Positions 14,967-18,091 of a stretch of 64,000 bases of DNA are shown one piece after another. The translations under genes and the position numbers were made by a program. Numbering within the stretch: the stretch's first letter is position 1; each line of letters begins with the position of its first letter. The stretch lies in the sequence record MN850584.1. One strand, written 5' to 3'. Source of the stretch: Escherichia phage arall. Under the pieces are notes generated by a model. The model was given only the letters and a program-made list of their open reading frames with translations, was not told the DNA's origin and ran no database searches.

Positions 14967-15437
14967 TTAGTCAGATTCCCAAATGTTGTCTTTCTTAACC
15001 CACATTCGTTGATTATCTGAACCTCTATAACGTTTCGTTGTTGGTTGATTCATATCATACTTACCATCTATCACTATGTCAACCAGTTTTTTAATTTTCT
15101 CTGGAATTTCTTCAAAAAGATATCCTGTATATAAGACAATATCTTTTTTGTTTCCAAAACAATCTCTTACCTTCTCAAGAACATACTCTACAGTGTCAAT
15201 GTTCTCTTTGTCAAGAGGTTCACCACCTAAAACTGTTAATCCTTTAATGAAAGGTCGAGATAAATCTTCCAAGATAAGATCTAATGTTTCAGCAGTGAAC
15301 TCTTGTCCGTAGTTATACGACCAGGCTTTCTGGTTAAAGCAGCCACGGCAACCGTGGCTACAACCGCTCACCCACAAAGAGCATCTTACACCGTCACCGT
15401 TGAGCATGTCAACAGGTTCATATCCGGCGTAATTCAA
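14967..15437 (-). CDS. nrdG: Anaerobic ribonucleotide reductase activating protein (radical SAM)
   Basis: CSHGCRGC cysteine motif, about 156 aa, immediately downstream of nrdD. Confidence 0.85.
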   Translation of the reverse strand: MNYAGYEPVDMLNGDGVRCSLWVSGCSHGCRGCFNQKAWSYNYGQEFTAETLDLILEDLSRPFIKGLTVLGGEPLDKENIDTVEYVLEKVRDCFGNKKDIVLYTGYLFEEIPEKIKKLVDIVIDGKYDMNQPTTKRYRGSDNQRMWVKKDNIWESD

Positions 15438-16375
15438 AAGTGTTTCTCCCTTTCTAGTACCTCTTGCATTTTACCTTTATTATAAGGGCGAGAGTTAGGG
15501 GCAGAAAGGTATCCTGACACTCTTCTGATCACAGATATGGATTCTTCTTCGTGATTACCGCAACTTGGACACTCGAAGCCTTTAGCTGTTGCCTTAAATT
15601 CACCATGAAAACCACATTTGAAACACTGATCTACAGGTTGGTTCACGCCAAAATAAGGGATTTTGTTGTAGGCATAATCTACAAGAGTTTCCAGTGCTTG
15701 CAAGTTATTTTTAAGGTTCGGTGTTTCTACATAACCTATGTTCCCACCATTACTAATTTGTGCAAAACCTTCCTCATAATCCCACTTTTGGAACGGGGTA
15801 GTGTGCATCCATACAGGTTGATGGAAAGAGTTTGTCAAGTAGTCACGATCAATAGAGCCAGGATAGCGATCATTTAACGCTTTGGCAAATTTATAGCACA
15901 AGGATTCTGCTGGTGTTCCATACAAACTAAAAGCTAAACCAGAACGTTCTTTAAATGTGCAACAGATATCCTTCATATATTGAAGGATGTTTTTACCCAT
16001 TGCTTTTGGATTGGTGTTACCTGGGTATAAAATCTCCATAGCTTCTGCTAAACCTACATAACCGATACTAATAGAGGCATAACCACCTTCGAATAGCTTA
16101 CCAATCTCTTCATTAGCTTCTAGTCGAGCTAAAGCCCCTTCCATAAACAATGTAGGGTTTTGAGATGCTTTGGTATGTCTAATACGGTTAACACGTAGCA
16201 TATGTGCCTTATACGCCATCTCCATATGTTGTTCCAACAGTTCAGTAAATAAGATGCCCTTTTCACGGGACTCTGCTGCAATGATAGGTAAGTTTAAAGA
16301 AACTACGCCTAAGTTGAAACGACCATCATATTTTTCACCTTGCTCTGTTGCATAGTATGACAAGAAACTTCTACA
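15434..16375 (-). CDS. nrdD: Anaerobic ribonucleoside-triphosphate reductase, exon 2
   Basis: Begins CRSFL..., contains C-terminal zinc-ribbon cysteines (CFKCG...CPSCG) and ends with the RVSGYL glycyl-radical-region motif; upstream part of the track ORF is intron sequence. Confidence 0.85.
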   Translation of the reverse strand, partial: CRSFLSYYATEQGEKYDGRFNLGVVSLNLPIIAAESREKGILFTELLEQHMEMAYKAHMLRVNRIRHTKASQNPTLFMEGALARLEANEEIGKLFEGGYASISIGYVGLAEAMEILYPGNTNPKAMGKNILQYMKDICCTFKERSGLAFSLYGTPAESLCYKFAKALNDRYPGSIDRDYLTNSFHQPVWMHTTPFQKWDYEEGFAQISNGGNIGYVETPNLKNNLQALETLVDYAYNKIPYFGVNQPVDQCFKCGFHGEFKATAKGFECPSCGNHEEESISVIRRVSGYLSAPNSRPYNKGKMQEVLEREKHF

Positions 16376-17144
16376 CATTATGTTCAAAGTGGCTCGCAAG
16401 GCCACTCCCGCACCATTACGTGCTGCTGCATGTCACCATGCAGATCAGACTATATCTTCATGCTTAAAGCATGTCTACCATTTGGGGTGTCATAGGCTTA
16501 CACCCTACGCTGCTACATTCATCACAGCTAGTCGTTAGGCATTTCGTAACAGAACTCATAATCATAATTATTTGGTGCTCCGCGCTTTAAGATTGCAGAT
16601 ATTCTTTTTCTGTCCAACCCTAAAGCGTCAGCACAACATCTCAGACTTTTAAAGTAAAAAACTTCACCAGTAGCCTTATGAGTAGCTTTTACACTGTGAC
16701 ACCTTGTGTAGAAAGCATAACAGTTATTATCGTAACCCTCTTGCGTGTTGTCTGGACAAGATCCCCACTCAAGATTGTATACACTGTTGTCTTTCCTATT
16801 GTCACCTTTATGCTTCACATAAGGTAAATTGTCTGGATTGGGTAAAAACGCTTCAGCTACAAGTCTGTGCACCCGAAAGCAAACAGTTTTCTTGTTTTTA
16901 CGTATTCTGACAAGTTGGTATCCTGTGTTTATTTCTTCCCACGAGCGAAGGATTCTTTCATCCTTATACCTGGTACAATAAACATTTCCAAGCTCGTCAA
17001 TTTCATACCCTTCAAAATCACGAATTTGTTTTCTCATACCAGTACCCCCTTCTTCTGTGTTGGGAGTTCTGTTACGTTTAGCACGGGATTGTCTCGTTGA
17101 GAGTTCCCCCGTTTAGGCAGATTTTACATGAGCAGTTATAGTTT
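16376..17144 (-). mobile_element. Group I intron interrupting nrdD, carrying an HNH endonuclease ORF
   Basis: Exon 1 frame stops 2 codons after ...VTSMG; exon 2 resumes CRSFL; intron has the group I core recalled from T4 td-type introns (CTAAACGGGG...GACAATCCCGTGCTAAA), exon ends in U, intron ends in G. Confidence 0.75.
16528..17037 (-). CDS. HNH homing endonuclease (intron-encoded)
   Basis: VHRLVAEAF...VKHKGDNRKDNSVYNLEW matches the HNH_3 motif; lies inside the nrdD intron. Confidence 0.8.
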   Translation of the reverse strand: MRKQIRDFEGYEIDELGNVYCTRYKDERILRSWEEINTGYQLVRIRKNKKTVCFRVHRLVAEAFLPNPDNLPYVKHKGDNRKDNSVYNLEWGSCPDNTQEGYDNNCYAFYTRCHSVKATHKATGEVFYFKSLRCCADALGLDRKRISAILKRGAPNNYDYEFCYEMPND

Positions 17145-18002
17145 ACCCATGCTTGTGACGCGACCATCTGAAGATCCTGTAACTTCTTTGTTTAAAGGTA
17201 CAGAGATAAAATCAGGATAAATGCGTTCAGCACAACACTCCATTGCCAGTTGCTTCAAATCATAGTTTGGATCGCCAGCTTTCATGTTAACACCATCTTC
17301 CAAGAAGAAGATAACTTTAGGAAACACAGGAGTTACCCTATCTTTTCCTAATCCTTGTTTGTGCACCATTAGGTAGTTTTTAGTGATCATTCTACCAAAA
17401 GCAGAGGTATCCAAACCTAAACTAATTGTTATAAAAGGTGACTGACCATTTACACTCATTAGAGTGTTCACCTGGTAGATTAAAGTTTGCATTGCATCAT
17501 AGACCTGTTTATCTACCATACGCATAGCAATATCATAATCGCCAACATCGGCATATATTTTATTAAAACTTGCTTTAACGTATTGACTAAGCCCAGTATC
17601 AACATGTGCACAAGTTTGTCCACCATATTGGCTAGAAGCTACTGCTTGAATAATTTGAGTTAGGACAGTAGTCGCTACACCGATAGATTTTGGTTTTTCA
17701 ATATGTGCATTACCAATACGGAAACCGTTCTCAAGCATATCTTGGTAATTTACCAGGCAACAATTAGTTAAAGGTGAGAGTAAATAATCTAAATCGTGAA
17801 TGTGACCATACCCACTTTTATGCCATTCTGCCAGATCTTCCGGTAAAATATGGGTCATTGCCATGTGCTTGCTTAGGATACCTGCTAGTAAGTCTCGGTG
17901 AGTATTAACAATCATTGCAGGTTTGTTTGCATTTTCACGAGTAAATTCTTCGGATGTTTGTTCGAGGAATCCGATTACATCCTCATATAGTTTTTGGGTC
18001 AT
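17145..18002 (-). CDS. nrdD: Anaerobic ribonucleoside-triphosphate reductase, exon 1
   Basis: 286 aa N-terminal NrdD portion ending ...EVTGSSDGRVTSMG; exon1+exon2 about 600 aa, typical NrdD size. Confidence 0.85.
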
Positions 18003-18091
18003 TAATCCTCCGTGGAAAATAAAAGCCAGCTTAATGCTGGCTTTAGGGTGGATCTTTATTTTAAATCTTTTTCGTAAGATTGTCCTTGATC

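What the first reader, a model, noticed from the sequence alone, without database searches (positions are those of the whole stretch)
15434..18002. nrdD split by a group I intron carrying an HNH homing endonuclease
The NrdD reading frame breaks two codons after ...VTSMG and resumes 769 nt downstream at CRSFL, matching the contiguous MGCRSFL region recalled from bacterial NrdD. The intervening sequence has the T4 td-like group I core (CTAAACGGGGG...GACAATCCCGTGCTAAA), follows U at the 5' splice site, ends in G, and has an HNH ORF looped out. The endonuclease is HNH-type rather than the GIY-YIG type associated with the classical T4 nrdD intron.
Basis: partly seen in the sequence, partly recalled or inferred. 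Interest (0 to 1): 0.5.

Follow-up and report, generated by a model that had tools for sequence, protein, structure and literature searches.

The report
Mobile group I intron splitting nrdD

Summary
On the minus strand, nrdD exon 1 (18002..17145) ends at GGT (Gly286), a 769-nt insert follows (17144..16376), and exon 2 (16375..15434) starts at TGT (Cys). Pfam NRDD covers profile positions 1-263 in exon 1 and 264-562 in exon 2. The joined 599-aa protein aligns end to end with T4 NrdD, and the junction falls at T4 G289|C290. A related phage (J-01) lacks exactly these 769 nt.

The insert is a group I intron. Rfam RF00028 scores 70.6 bits on the natural ORF-less copy in phi92 and 39.3 bits on the 3' half here. 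In 7 homologues, 96% of cells pair and 33 of 77 pairs show compensatory changes. The U·G pair at the 5' splice site is invariant.

The 169-aa ORF sits in the P6a loop and is an I-HmuI-like HNH endonuclease. The intron is 99.5% identical between phage genera whose exons are 73-76% identical, has a patchy distribution and carries a co-converted 3' exon flank, so it is mobile.

It differs from the T4 nrdD intron in insertion site, ORF position and endonuclease family. It is ordinary and already in the databases: phi92 and ECGD1 annotate a spliced CDS. Splicing and cleavage were not tested here.

The parts
17145..18002 (-). nrdD exon 1 (286 codons, ends GGT = Gly286)
   Evidence: Pfam NRDD profile 1-263, E 9e-73. 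Aligns to T4 NrdD residues 5-289. The reading frame stops two codons into the intron.
16376..17144 (-). Group I intron, 769 nt (subgroup IA2-like, with P7.1/P7.2 and P9.1/P9.2). Starts AAACUAUAAC and ends CAUAAUG; the terminal G is at 16376.
   Evidence: RF00028: 39.3 bits on the 3' half here and 70.6 bits on the ORF-less phi92 copy. Exactly absent from J-01 and inny. Covariation: 96% of cells paired and 33 of 77 pairs compensatory.
17069..17144 (-). 5' part of the ribozyme core: P10 strand CUAUA (17141..17137), internal guide sequence GCUCAUG (17133..17127), P3, P4, P5, P6 and the P6a 5' strand
   Evidence: The MFE fold of the ORF-less form recovers P1, P3-P6a, P7.1, P7.2, P8 and P9-P9.2. Helices were mapped and counted.
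17145..17151 (-). Exon strand of P1 (CAUGGGU), pairing with the guide sequence GCUCAUG; U·G wobble at the splice site
   Evidence: U·G is present in 7 of 7 homologues. The JSE copy has a compensatory C-G to G-C change at the base of P1.
17044..17067 (-). Hairpin ACUCCC/GGGGGU (P6b) that encloses the Shine-Dalgarno sequence of the HNH ORF
   Evidence: Predicted at -7.7 kcal/mol. The equivalent hairpins in HMD-6 (ACUCCU/AGGAGU) and F97 also enclose the SD, with compensatory changes; the JSE hairpin (UCUCUU/AAGAGG) was read by eye only. Regulatory role inferred by analogy with the T4 introns (PMC2988022).
16528..17037 (-). Intron-encoded I-HmuI-like HNH homing endonuclease ORF (169 aa) in the P6a loop
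   Evidence: PDB 1u3e I-HmuI, E 8e-9 over residues 3-166. PHROG 59 HNH endonuclease, E 2e-34. Pfam HNH_3 and I-HmuI NUMOD-like fall just below their cut-offs. AF2 pLDDT 90.9; the only significant PDB fold hit is 1u3e. H57, H76, N88 and N97 are invariant in 50 homologues.
16376..16552 (-). 3' part of the ribozyme core: P6a', P6', J6/7, P7 (16533..16529 with 16452..16448), P7.1, P7.2, P3' (16479..16474), P8, P9, P9.1, P9.2 and the terminal G. Its first 25 nt are also the last 8 codons plus stop of the HNH ORF.
   Evidence: Rfam alignment. Helix mapping and pair counts. The C-terminal motif EMPND* is conserved in the intron ORFs of divergent phages.
15434..16375 (-). nrdD exon 2 (313 codons). It starts with TGT, the Cys equivalent to T4 C290, and contains the glycyl-radical domain and the Zn ribbon. 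Its first 5 nt, UGUAG, form P10.
   Evidence: Pfam NRDD profile 264-562 (E 2e-85) and Gly_radical. Aligned to T4 NrdD 290-604. All intron-containing alleles sharing the AAACU 5' end share TGTAGAAGTTTC here.
14967..15437 (-). nrdG (NrdD activase, radical SAM), overlapping the nrdD stop codon by 4 nt; context only
   Evidence: Pfam Fer4_12 E 1e-41 and Radical_SAM.

Best explanation
This is a mobile, self-splicing group I intron (IA2-like, related to the T4 sunY/nrdD intron) inserted in the phage nrdD gene between the codons for Gly286 and Cys287. Those codons correspond to T4 G289 and C290, the active-site finger-loop cysteine.

Proposed mechanism (steps 1-4 are inferred from the anatomy, not shown):
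1. The gene is transcribed as one pre-mRNA.
2. The intron folds into P1-P10. P1 pairs exon CAUGGGU with the guide sequence GCUCAUG, with a U·G at the splice site. P10 pairs intron CUAUA with exon-2 UGUAG.
3. Guanosine-initiated transesterification removes the 769 nt and joins the exons into a 599-codon nrdD mRNA.
4. The loop of P6a carries a 169-aa I-HmuI-like HNH endonuclease.
5. In mixed infections the enzyme probably nicks or cuts intron-less nrdD alleles near the ATGGGT|TGY site. Recombinational repair then copies in the intron together with a short stretch of 3' exon.
For: - Exon continuity: Pfam profile 263|264 at the junction and a full-length alignment to T4 NrdD with the junction at G289|C290.
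- Boundaries: exact 769-nt absence in J-01 and inny.
- RNA family: RF00028 at 70.6 bits in the ORF-less natural copy and 39.3 bits here.
- RNA structure: 96% of cells paired against 30-46% in slid controls, 33 of 77 pairs with compensatory changes, every helix from P1 to P9.2 supported, U·G in 7 of 7.
- Endonuclease: I-HmuI homology by sequence and by fold, with catalytic H/N residues invariant.
- Mobility, identity contrast: the intron is 99.5% identical to that of Phapecoctavirus nepoznato, whose exons are 73-76% identical. It is 85% identical to that of rV5-like HMD-6, whose exons are 63-66% identical.
- Mobility, distribution: about 28 records have the intron with ORF and about 19 have an ORF-less intron (estimated from the listed rows). 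233 records cover at least 80% of a 300-nt junction-spanning probe in one place; this count includes some ORF-less intron records whose two pieces were joined, but most listed rows are contiguous intron-less alleles.
- Mobility, flank: the six copies sharing the AAACU 5' end (Justusliebigvirus, Phapecoctavirus, Vequintavirus, Avunavirus, Krischvirus JSE, Vibrio phage 1.084.O) share the 3' exon flank TGTAGAAGTTTC, whereas intron-less alleles differ synonymously.
- Mobility, co-conversion: nepoznato has an asymmetric tract from +4 to about +48.
- Homing cycle: two independent ORF deletions, leaving 279 nt and 290 nt, both keep the RNA core intact.
- Prior annotation: phi92 and ECGD1 carry a joined 'spliced variant' CDS.
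Against: - No RNA or protein data were available, so splicing, endonuclease activity and the cleavage site are inferred.
- The window itself does not reach the Rfam gathering score, although the ORF insertion explains this.
- Both Pfam HNH-related hits on the ORF are just below their curated cut-offs.
- The residue before the catalytic His is Lys where I-HmuI has Asp74, a metal ligand (from memory of the I-HmuI structure paper). That column is variable across the family and is mostly Asn.
- A GGGAG followed by GUG inside P9.2 could in principle start independent translation of exon 2. phi92 annotates such a CDS.
Confidence: 0.93

Rival explanations
1. The intron is a self-splicing relic that is no longer mobile. 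The HNH ORF is intact but inactive or not expressed, and the patchy distribution reflects past spread plus ordinary recombination between co-infecting phages.
For: Many close relatives have lost the ORF by deletion, in two independent events (about 19 records). Lys replaces the Asp found before the catalytic His in I-HmuI. The Shine-Dalgarno sequence is sequestered in a hairpin.
Against: The ORF is full length with all invariant family residues. The intron plus ORF is 99.5% identical across genera whose exons differ by about 25%, which points to very recent transfer. The position before the His is variable in a family that has hundreds of members.
Confidence: 0.2
2. There is no splicing. nrdD is expressed as two polypeptides that assemble after translation, as for phage Aeh1 NrdA split by mobE, and the insert is simply an endonuclease cassette.
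For: Most records annotate two separate CDS. phi92 lists an RBS-like GGAG before a GTG start of the exon-2 ORF. A precedent for a split ribonucleotide reductase is described in PMC3653736 and PMC7344957.
Against: The insert has a complete, covarying group I ribozyme core. The ORF-less derivatives keep that core precisely, which would be pointless without splicing. The proposed GTG lies 1 nt after the GGGAG and inside the P9.2 stem. The split would fall at the tip of the catalytic finger loop.
Confidence: 0.04
3. The insert is an intein or another protein-level element, or the break is a frameshift or assembly artefact.
For: Inteins are common in ribonucleotide reductase genes (PMC3653736).
Against: The frame closes two codons into the insert. 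There are no intein motifs and the only Pfam hits are HNH-related. The same structure occurs in dozens of independently sequenced genomes.
Confidence: 0.01

Closest known systems
nrdD intron of phage phi92 (NC_023693, gene 192A 'spliced variant') and ECGD1 (gene 200A), Justusliebigvirus
   Same: Same gene, same insertion site, same RNA core (277 of 279 nt identical), same host-phage genus. The records already annotate a joined CDS.
   Different: Those copies have lost the HNH ORF through 490-nt and 479-nt deletions inside the P6a loop. The window carries the full 769-nt form, as do VEcB, SD2, phiWec187 and nepoznato, where the ORF is mostly labelled 'hypothetical protein' and the exons are annotated as two genes.
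T4 nrdD (sunY) group I intron with I-TevII
   Same: Same host gene. It is the closest classical relative of the RNA (70.5% identity over 75% of the ORF-less intron), with the same IA2-type extra helices P7.1/P7.2. The RBS of its endonuclease is also sequestered (PMC2988022).
   Different: The insertion site is about 110 codons upstream (AYE|YEVNTL, against MG|CRSFL here). The ORF lies after P9 rather than in the P6a loop. The endonuclease is GIY-YIG I-TevII, not HNH.
I-HmuI / I-HmuII / I-BasI: HNH nicking endonucleases of group I introns in Bacillus phage DNA polymerase genes
   Same: The ORF is a full-length homologue of I-HmuI (174 aa against 169 aa). It has the same three-part layout: N-terminal sheet, HNH motif and C-terminal helix-turn-helix. 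It is likewise intron-encoded in a phage.
   Different: Only about 25% identity. The host gene, target site and phage group differ. Lys stands where I-HmuI has Asp74. Nicking versus double-strand cleavage was not tested.
nrdD introns with an HNH ORF in rV5-like phages (HMD-6, 241Ecol014PP), RB49-like JSE and Vibrio phage 1.084.O
   Same: Same MG|C insertion site, homologous core and homologous ORF in P6a, and the same 3' exon flank TGTAGAAGTTTC. In HMD-6 and 241Ecol014PP the ORF is already annotated 'HNH homing endonuclease'.
   Different: The HMD-6 intron is 85% identical. The ORFs are 91% (HMD-6) and 50% (JSE) identical. These are divergent members of the same intron lineage.

Membership tests
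Group I self-splicing intron (Rfam RF00028) | Match to the family covariance model at or above the gathering score | tested here: inconclusive
   The window itself scores 39.3 bits against a gathering score of 50 (E 2.7e-8), and only on the 3' half, because the ORF splits the core. The natural ORF-less copy, which differs at 2 of 279 nt, scores 70.6 bits (E 3e-17).
Group I self-splicing intron (Rfam RF00028) | Conserved core helices P3-P8, including the P3/P7 pseudoknot, supported by covariation | tested here: met
   96% of 526 cells pair; 33 of 77 pairs have changes on both sides; slid controls give 30-46% paired and at most 5 such pairs. P3, P4, P5, P6, P6a, P7 and P8 each contain compensatory pairs.
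Group I self-splicing intron (Rfam RF00028) | P1 with a U·G wobble at the 5' splice site, formed with an internal guide sequence; terminal G at the 3' end; P10 with the 3' exon | tested here: met
   CAUGGGU/GCUCAUG, with U·G in 7 of 7 homologues and a compensatory change in JSE. The last intron base is G. CUAUA/UGUAG forms P10 and is paired in 88.6% of cells.
Group I self-splicing intron (Rfam RF00028) | Removal restores an uninterrupted, functional-looking host gene | tested here: met
   Pfam NRDD 263|264 at the junction. 599 aa collinear with T4 NrdD. Intron-less alleles have exactly this junction.
Group I self-splicing intron (Rfam RF00028) | GTP-dependent self-splicing, or spliced RNA in vivo | not testable with these tools
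   No RNA data available. Only database annotations of a 'spliced variant' exist.
HNH homing endonuclease, I-HmuI-like | HNH (beta-beta-alpha-metal) motif with the catalytic His and the conserved Asn residues | tested here: met
   H76, N88 and N97 (and H57) are invariant in alignments of 20 and 50 homologues. Pfam HNH_3 scores 22.0 bits against a cut-off of 24.8. PHROG 59 gives E 2e-34.
HNH homing endonuclease, I-HmuI-like | Full-length similarity to I-HmuI, including the N-terminal DNA-binding sheet and the C-terminal helix-turn-helix (NUMOD-like) domain | tested here: met
   phmmer against 1u3e covers residues 3-166 against 4-172, E 8e-9. Foldseek E 2e-11, probability 1.0, on a model with pLDDT 90.9. 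Pfam I-HmuI_NUMOD-like scores 25.4 bits against a cut-off of 27.
HNH homing endonuclease, I-HmuI-like | Site-specific nicking or cleavage of the intron-less allele and endonuclease-dependent homing | not testable with these tools
   Only indirect evidence: the contrast between intron and exon identity, the co-conversion tract and the patchy distribution.
T4 nrdD (sunY) intron / I-TevII element | Same insertion site in nrdD | tested here: not met
   T4 is split at AYE|YEVNTL (about codon 178), whereas this element is at the position equivalent to T4 G289|C290.
T4 nrdD (sunY) intron / I-TevII element | GIY-YIG endonuclease I-TevII encoded downstream of the core | tested here: not met
   Here the ORF is HNH-type and sits in the P6a loop. 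In T4 the I-TevII ORF follows P9.

The most novel reading that the evidence does not exclude
The intron with its ORF may be a currently active, cross-family invader. On this reading, one I-HmuI-like nicking endonuclease that recognises the DNA coding for the NrdD active-site loop (ATGGGT|TGY CGN/AGR) is moving the same intron, together with 12 or more nt of 3' exon, among Stephanstirmvirinae, Vequintavirinae, RB49-like Straboviridae and marine Vibrio phages. The shared TGTAGAAGTTTC flank would then serve two purposes: P10 pairing and immunity of the occupied site. The last 8 codons of the ORF would be held fixed (EMPND*) because they are also P6a'/P6'/J6-7/P7 of the ribozyme.
Probability: 0.5. 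Interest if true: 0.3.

Novelty: already known. Interest (0 to 1): 0.18.

Why it matters
The practical value is for annotation. In most public records of these phages, nrdD appears as two 'NrdD-like' genes with a 'hypothetical protein' between them. They should be one spliced CDS plus an intron-encoded HNH homing endonuclease.

Biologically it is a clean textbook example of the homing cycle within one phage subfamily. Intron-less alleles, invaded alleles and two independently ORF-deleted alleles coexist. The insertion lies at the catalytic cysteine codon, and a short co-converted exon flank travels with the intron.

It does not open a new question. A specialist in phage introns would not be surprised.

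Tried and rejected
- The Rfam gathering scan of the whole window found nothing. This was a false negative caused by the ORF. It was resolved with an E-value scan and with the ORF-less phi92 copy.
- The whole-window E-value scan found no second intron or other RNA family at E up to 0.01. There are no tRNAs.
- The sigma-70 promoter and terminator scan around the gene gave no more sites than shuffled sequence (10 against 8.5±2.9). No promoter could therefore be assigned to the endonuclease ORF. The late-promoter consensus of this phage group is not known to me.
- I first assumed that the T4 nrdD intron shares this insertion site. Translating the T4 locus showed that it does not.
- I asked whether Lys before the catalytic His marks a dead enzyme. 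That column is variable across the family (mostly Asn; Asp in I-HmuI), so it is not diagnostic.
- Literature: no paper in the held library describes this particular nrdD intron. The phi92 genome paper (PMC3457257) is not held. The rV5 paper mentions only terminase introns. The T4-related genome review notes only a gene 43 intron for JSE. The phage ribonucleotide reductase survey lists six split nrdD genes but not these phages.
- I did not build my own covariance model, because calibrating a model of about 280 nt would exceed the time limit. I used a hand-specified structure with pair counting instead.
Full report
**What is in the sequence**

The feature lies on the minus strand. An ORF from 18002 to 17136 reads ...GSSDGRVTSMGKL*. 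A second ORF ends at 15434 and contains ...MCRSFLSYYATEQ.... I place the exon 1 end at 17145, the T of GGT (Gly286). The insert is then 17144..16376, which is 769 nt, starting AAACTATAAC and ending CATAATG. Exon 2 starts at 16375 with TGT (Cys).

**The two ORFs are halves of one nrdD**

- Pfam NRDD matches exon 1 over profile positions 1-263 (E 9e-73) and exon 2 over 264-562 (E 2e-85). The two halves abut with no gap or overlap.
- Exon 2 also carries the glycyl-radical domain.
- The joined 599-aa protein aligns from residue 7 to 598 with T4 NrdD (PDB 1h78, E 1.6e-164). Across the junction, vtsmgcrsfls aligns with T4 vspmgcrsfls.
- Counting along that alignment puts the junction between T4 G289 and C290. 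From my memory of the T4 NrdD literature, C290 is the finger-loop cysteine of the active site.
- nrdG follows and overlaps the nrdD stop by 4 nt.

**Natural alleles fix the boundaries**

The window is a phi92-like coliphage of genus Justusliebigvirus, 99.0% identical to VEcB over this gene. Three allele types exist:
- Phages J-01 and inny carry an uninterrupted nrdD reading ...ACAAGCATGGGT|TGCCGTAGCTTCTTG.... This is exactly the window minus the 769 nt, and no alternative register fits.
- phi92 carries the same insert without its ORF (279 nt). Its RefSeq record has a joined CDS labelled 'spliced variant'. ECGD1 has a 290-nt form that is also annotated as a join.
- VEcB, SD2, phiWec187 and Phapecoctavirus nepoznato carry the full 769-770-nt form. 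There it is annotated as two NrdD genes plus a hypothetical protein.

**The insert is a group I intron**

The default Rfam scan of the window is empty. The E-value scan finds RF00028 on 16533..16426 (minus strand) at 39.3 bits, with E 2.7e-8 locally and 1.7e-6 over the whole window. That hit covers P8, J8/7, P7' and P9. On the ORF-less phi92 copy, which differs at 2 of 279 positions, the model matches end to end at 70.6 bits against a gathering score of 50, E 3e-17.

An unconstrained MFE fold of the ORF-deleted sequence recovers P1, P3, P4, P5, P6, P6a, a P6b hairpin, P7.1, P7.2, P8, P9, P9.1 and P9.2. P7 (GACUA/UAGUC) is the pseudoknot partner that such a fold cannot show.

I excised the ORF from seven homologues and aligned them: the window, nepoznato, rV5-like HMD-6, RB49-like JSE, Avunavirus 18-1-2, and Vibrio phages 1.084.O and F97. 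I then counted pairs on a hand-written structure:
- 96.0% of 526 cells form standard pairs, against 30-46% when partners are slid by 1-3 columns.
- 33 of 77 pairs have changes on both sides, against at most 5 in the slid controls and 13.9±2.6 in shuffles.
- Every helix except P9 and P10 contains compensatory pairs.
- The U·G pair at the 5' splice site is present in 7 of 7.
- JSE compensates C-G to G-C at the base of P1 (exon GAUGGGU with guide GCUCAUC).
- P10 (intron CUAUA with exon-2 UGUAG) is paired in 88.6% of cells.

P7.1/P7.2 and P9.1/P9.2 are the extra helices typical of the T4-type IA2 introns; that subgroup assignment rests on my background knowledge.

**The internal ORF**

ORF 17037..16528 (169 aa) starts in the loop of P6a. 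Its last 25 nt (CUGUUACGAAAUGCCUAACGACUAG) are also P6a', P6', J6/7 and the 5' strand of P7. This explains why the C-terminal EMPND* is conserved in otherwise divergent intron ORFs.

Evidence that it is an I-HmuI-like HNH endonuclease:
- Pfam gives HNH_3 (22.0 bits, cut-off 24.8) and I-HmuI_NUMOD-like (25.4 bits, cut-off 27), both just under threshold.
- PHROG 59 'HNH endonuclease' gives E 2e-34.
- phmmer against the PDB finds only I-HmuI (1u3e), over the full length, E 8e-9.
- 613 homologues were found in the protein collection, mostly carrying NUMOD4, NUMOD1 and HNH_3 domains.
- H57, H76, N88 and N97 are invariant in alignments of 20 and 50 sequences.
- An AlphaFold model (pLDDT 90.9) has I-HmuI as its only significant PDB fold match (E 2e-11, probability 1.0).
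- The residue before the catalytic His is Lys where I-HmuI has Asp. That column varies across the family and is mostly Asn, so it does not signal decay.

The Shine-Dalgarno sequence GGGGG lies 7 nt upstream of the AUG, inside a hairpin ACUCCC/GGGGGU (-7.7 kcal/mol). HMD-6 (ACUCCU/AGGAGU) and F97 have equivalent SD-enclosing hairpins with different sequences; I read the JSE hairpin (UCUCUU/AAGAGG) by eye from the sequence. The three T4 intron endonucleases use the same device (PMC2988022). A regulatory role here is an inference.

**Evidence that the element moves**

- Identity contrast: against nepoznato the exons are 73.2% and 76.4% identical but the intron is 99.5% identical. Against HMD-6 the exons are 65.9% and 62.9% and the intron 85.4%.
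- Distribution: about 28 records cover at least 80% of the 769 nt. About 19 have only the ORF-less core; that figure is estimated from the listed rows. 233 records cover at least 80% of a 300-nt probe spanning the intron-less junction in one place. That count includes some ORF-less intron records whose two pieces were joined, but most listed rows are contiguous intron-less alleles from Justusliebigvirus, Phapecoctavirus, Vequintavirus, Seunavirus and others.
- Shared flank: the six aligned copies with the AAACU 5' end, from six lineages, begin exon 2 with TGTAGAAGTTTC. Intron-less alleles read TGCCGTAGCTTC, TGTCGTTCCTTT, TGCAGGAGTTTT or TGCAGAAGCTTC, all coding CRSF. The more divergent Vibrio F97 copy has a different flank (TGCCGATCC).
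- Co-conversion: in nepoznato every informative site from +4 to +33, and again at +48, matches the Justusliebigvirus-type allele. Upstream sites match its own genus almost up to the junction. This looks like a short, one-sided co-conversion tract.
- ORF loss: the two ORF-less forms have different deletion endpoints. The phi92 type lacks intron nt 103-592, flanked by CTG repeats. The ECGD1 type breaks after nt 98. The ORF was therefore lost at least twice while the ribozyme was kept.

Together these fit the usual cycle of invasion, fixation and endonuclease decay.

**Comparison with what is known**

The T4 nrdD (sunY) intron is the closest classical RNA relative (70.5% over 75% of the ORF-less intron). 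It differs in three ways:
- It splits T4 nrdD at AYE|YEVNTL, about 110 codons upstream.
- It carries its ORF after P9.
- That ORF is the GIY-YIG enzyme I-TevII.

The T4 td intron shares only a 33-nt identical stretch running from the 3' strand of P8 through the 3' strand of P7 into P9. The protein resembles the I-HmuI class of intron-encoded HNH enzymes of Bacillus phages, which nick one strand (PMC2988022). Insertion at functionally critical codons is a recognised habit of phage introns (same review).

I found no paper in the held library that describes this particular intron, and the phi92 genome paper is not held. The phi92 and ECGD1 records, and the 'HNH homing endonuclease' labels in rV5-like phages, show that annotators have already recognised it.

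**Rivals**

- A split, unspliced NrdD as in Aeh1 NrdA is very unlikely. The ribozyme core covaries and is precisely retained when the ORF is deleted.
- An intein is excluded by the closed reading frame.
- The one real uncertainty is whether the endonuclease is still active. I put that at roughly even to likely, given the intact ORF and the near-identical copies in different genera.

**Verdict**

The element is an ordinary mobile group I intron with an I-HmuI-like HNH gene, already present and partly annotated in public genomes. Interest is low. Its value is correct annotation and a tidy natural example of the homing cycle. Splicing, cleavage and homing remain to be shown experimentally.

Noticed in passing
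GenBank MG0656xx records (e.g. A145, A110a, A140, A12a) matched by window 15434-18002: Twelve to twenty-three records named 'Campylobacter phage' are about 99% identical to phi92-like or rV5-like coliphages over nrdD and the intron. The host label looks doubtful.
   Followed up: no
L002 (phi92) 1359-1637 and L016 (ECGD1) 201-490, corresponding to window 16376-17144: There are two different ORF-less derivatives of the intron, 279 nt and 290 nt, with different deletion endpoints inside the P6a loop. The endonuclease gene was therefore lost independently at least twice.
   Followed up: yes
L008 (Vibrio phage F97) 1-3169: nrdD is annotated in at least three CDS pieces with two HNH ORFs nearby. One intron sits at the same MG|C site but with a different 3' exon flank. 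There is probably a second interruption as well.
   Followed up: partly
L015 (Aeromonas phage 4L372D) about 1425-1805: The terminase large subunit gene is split by an ORF-less insert whose core is homologous to this intron (68% over 60% of the query), so the same ribozyme lineage occurs in a different gene.
   Followed up: no
L006 (JSE) 1589-1612: The annotated start of the JSE intron ORF is probably 7 codons too early. The ATG preceded by AAGAGGA aligns with the start of the homologues.
   Followed up: partly
window 18022-18044 (minus strand): A terminator-like hairpin (AAAGCCAGC...GCTGGCTTT followed by a T run) sits just upstream of the nrdD RBS, between the preceding 316-aa gene and nrdD.
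   Followed up: no
window 16401-16410 (minus strand), inside P9.2: A GGGAG followed one base later by GTG opens the exon-2 ORF (MALRATLNIM-CRSFL). phi92 annotates it as an RBS and start codon. The spacing and the stem make independent initiation unlikely, but it was not excluded.
   Followed up: partly
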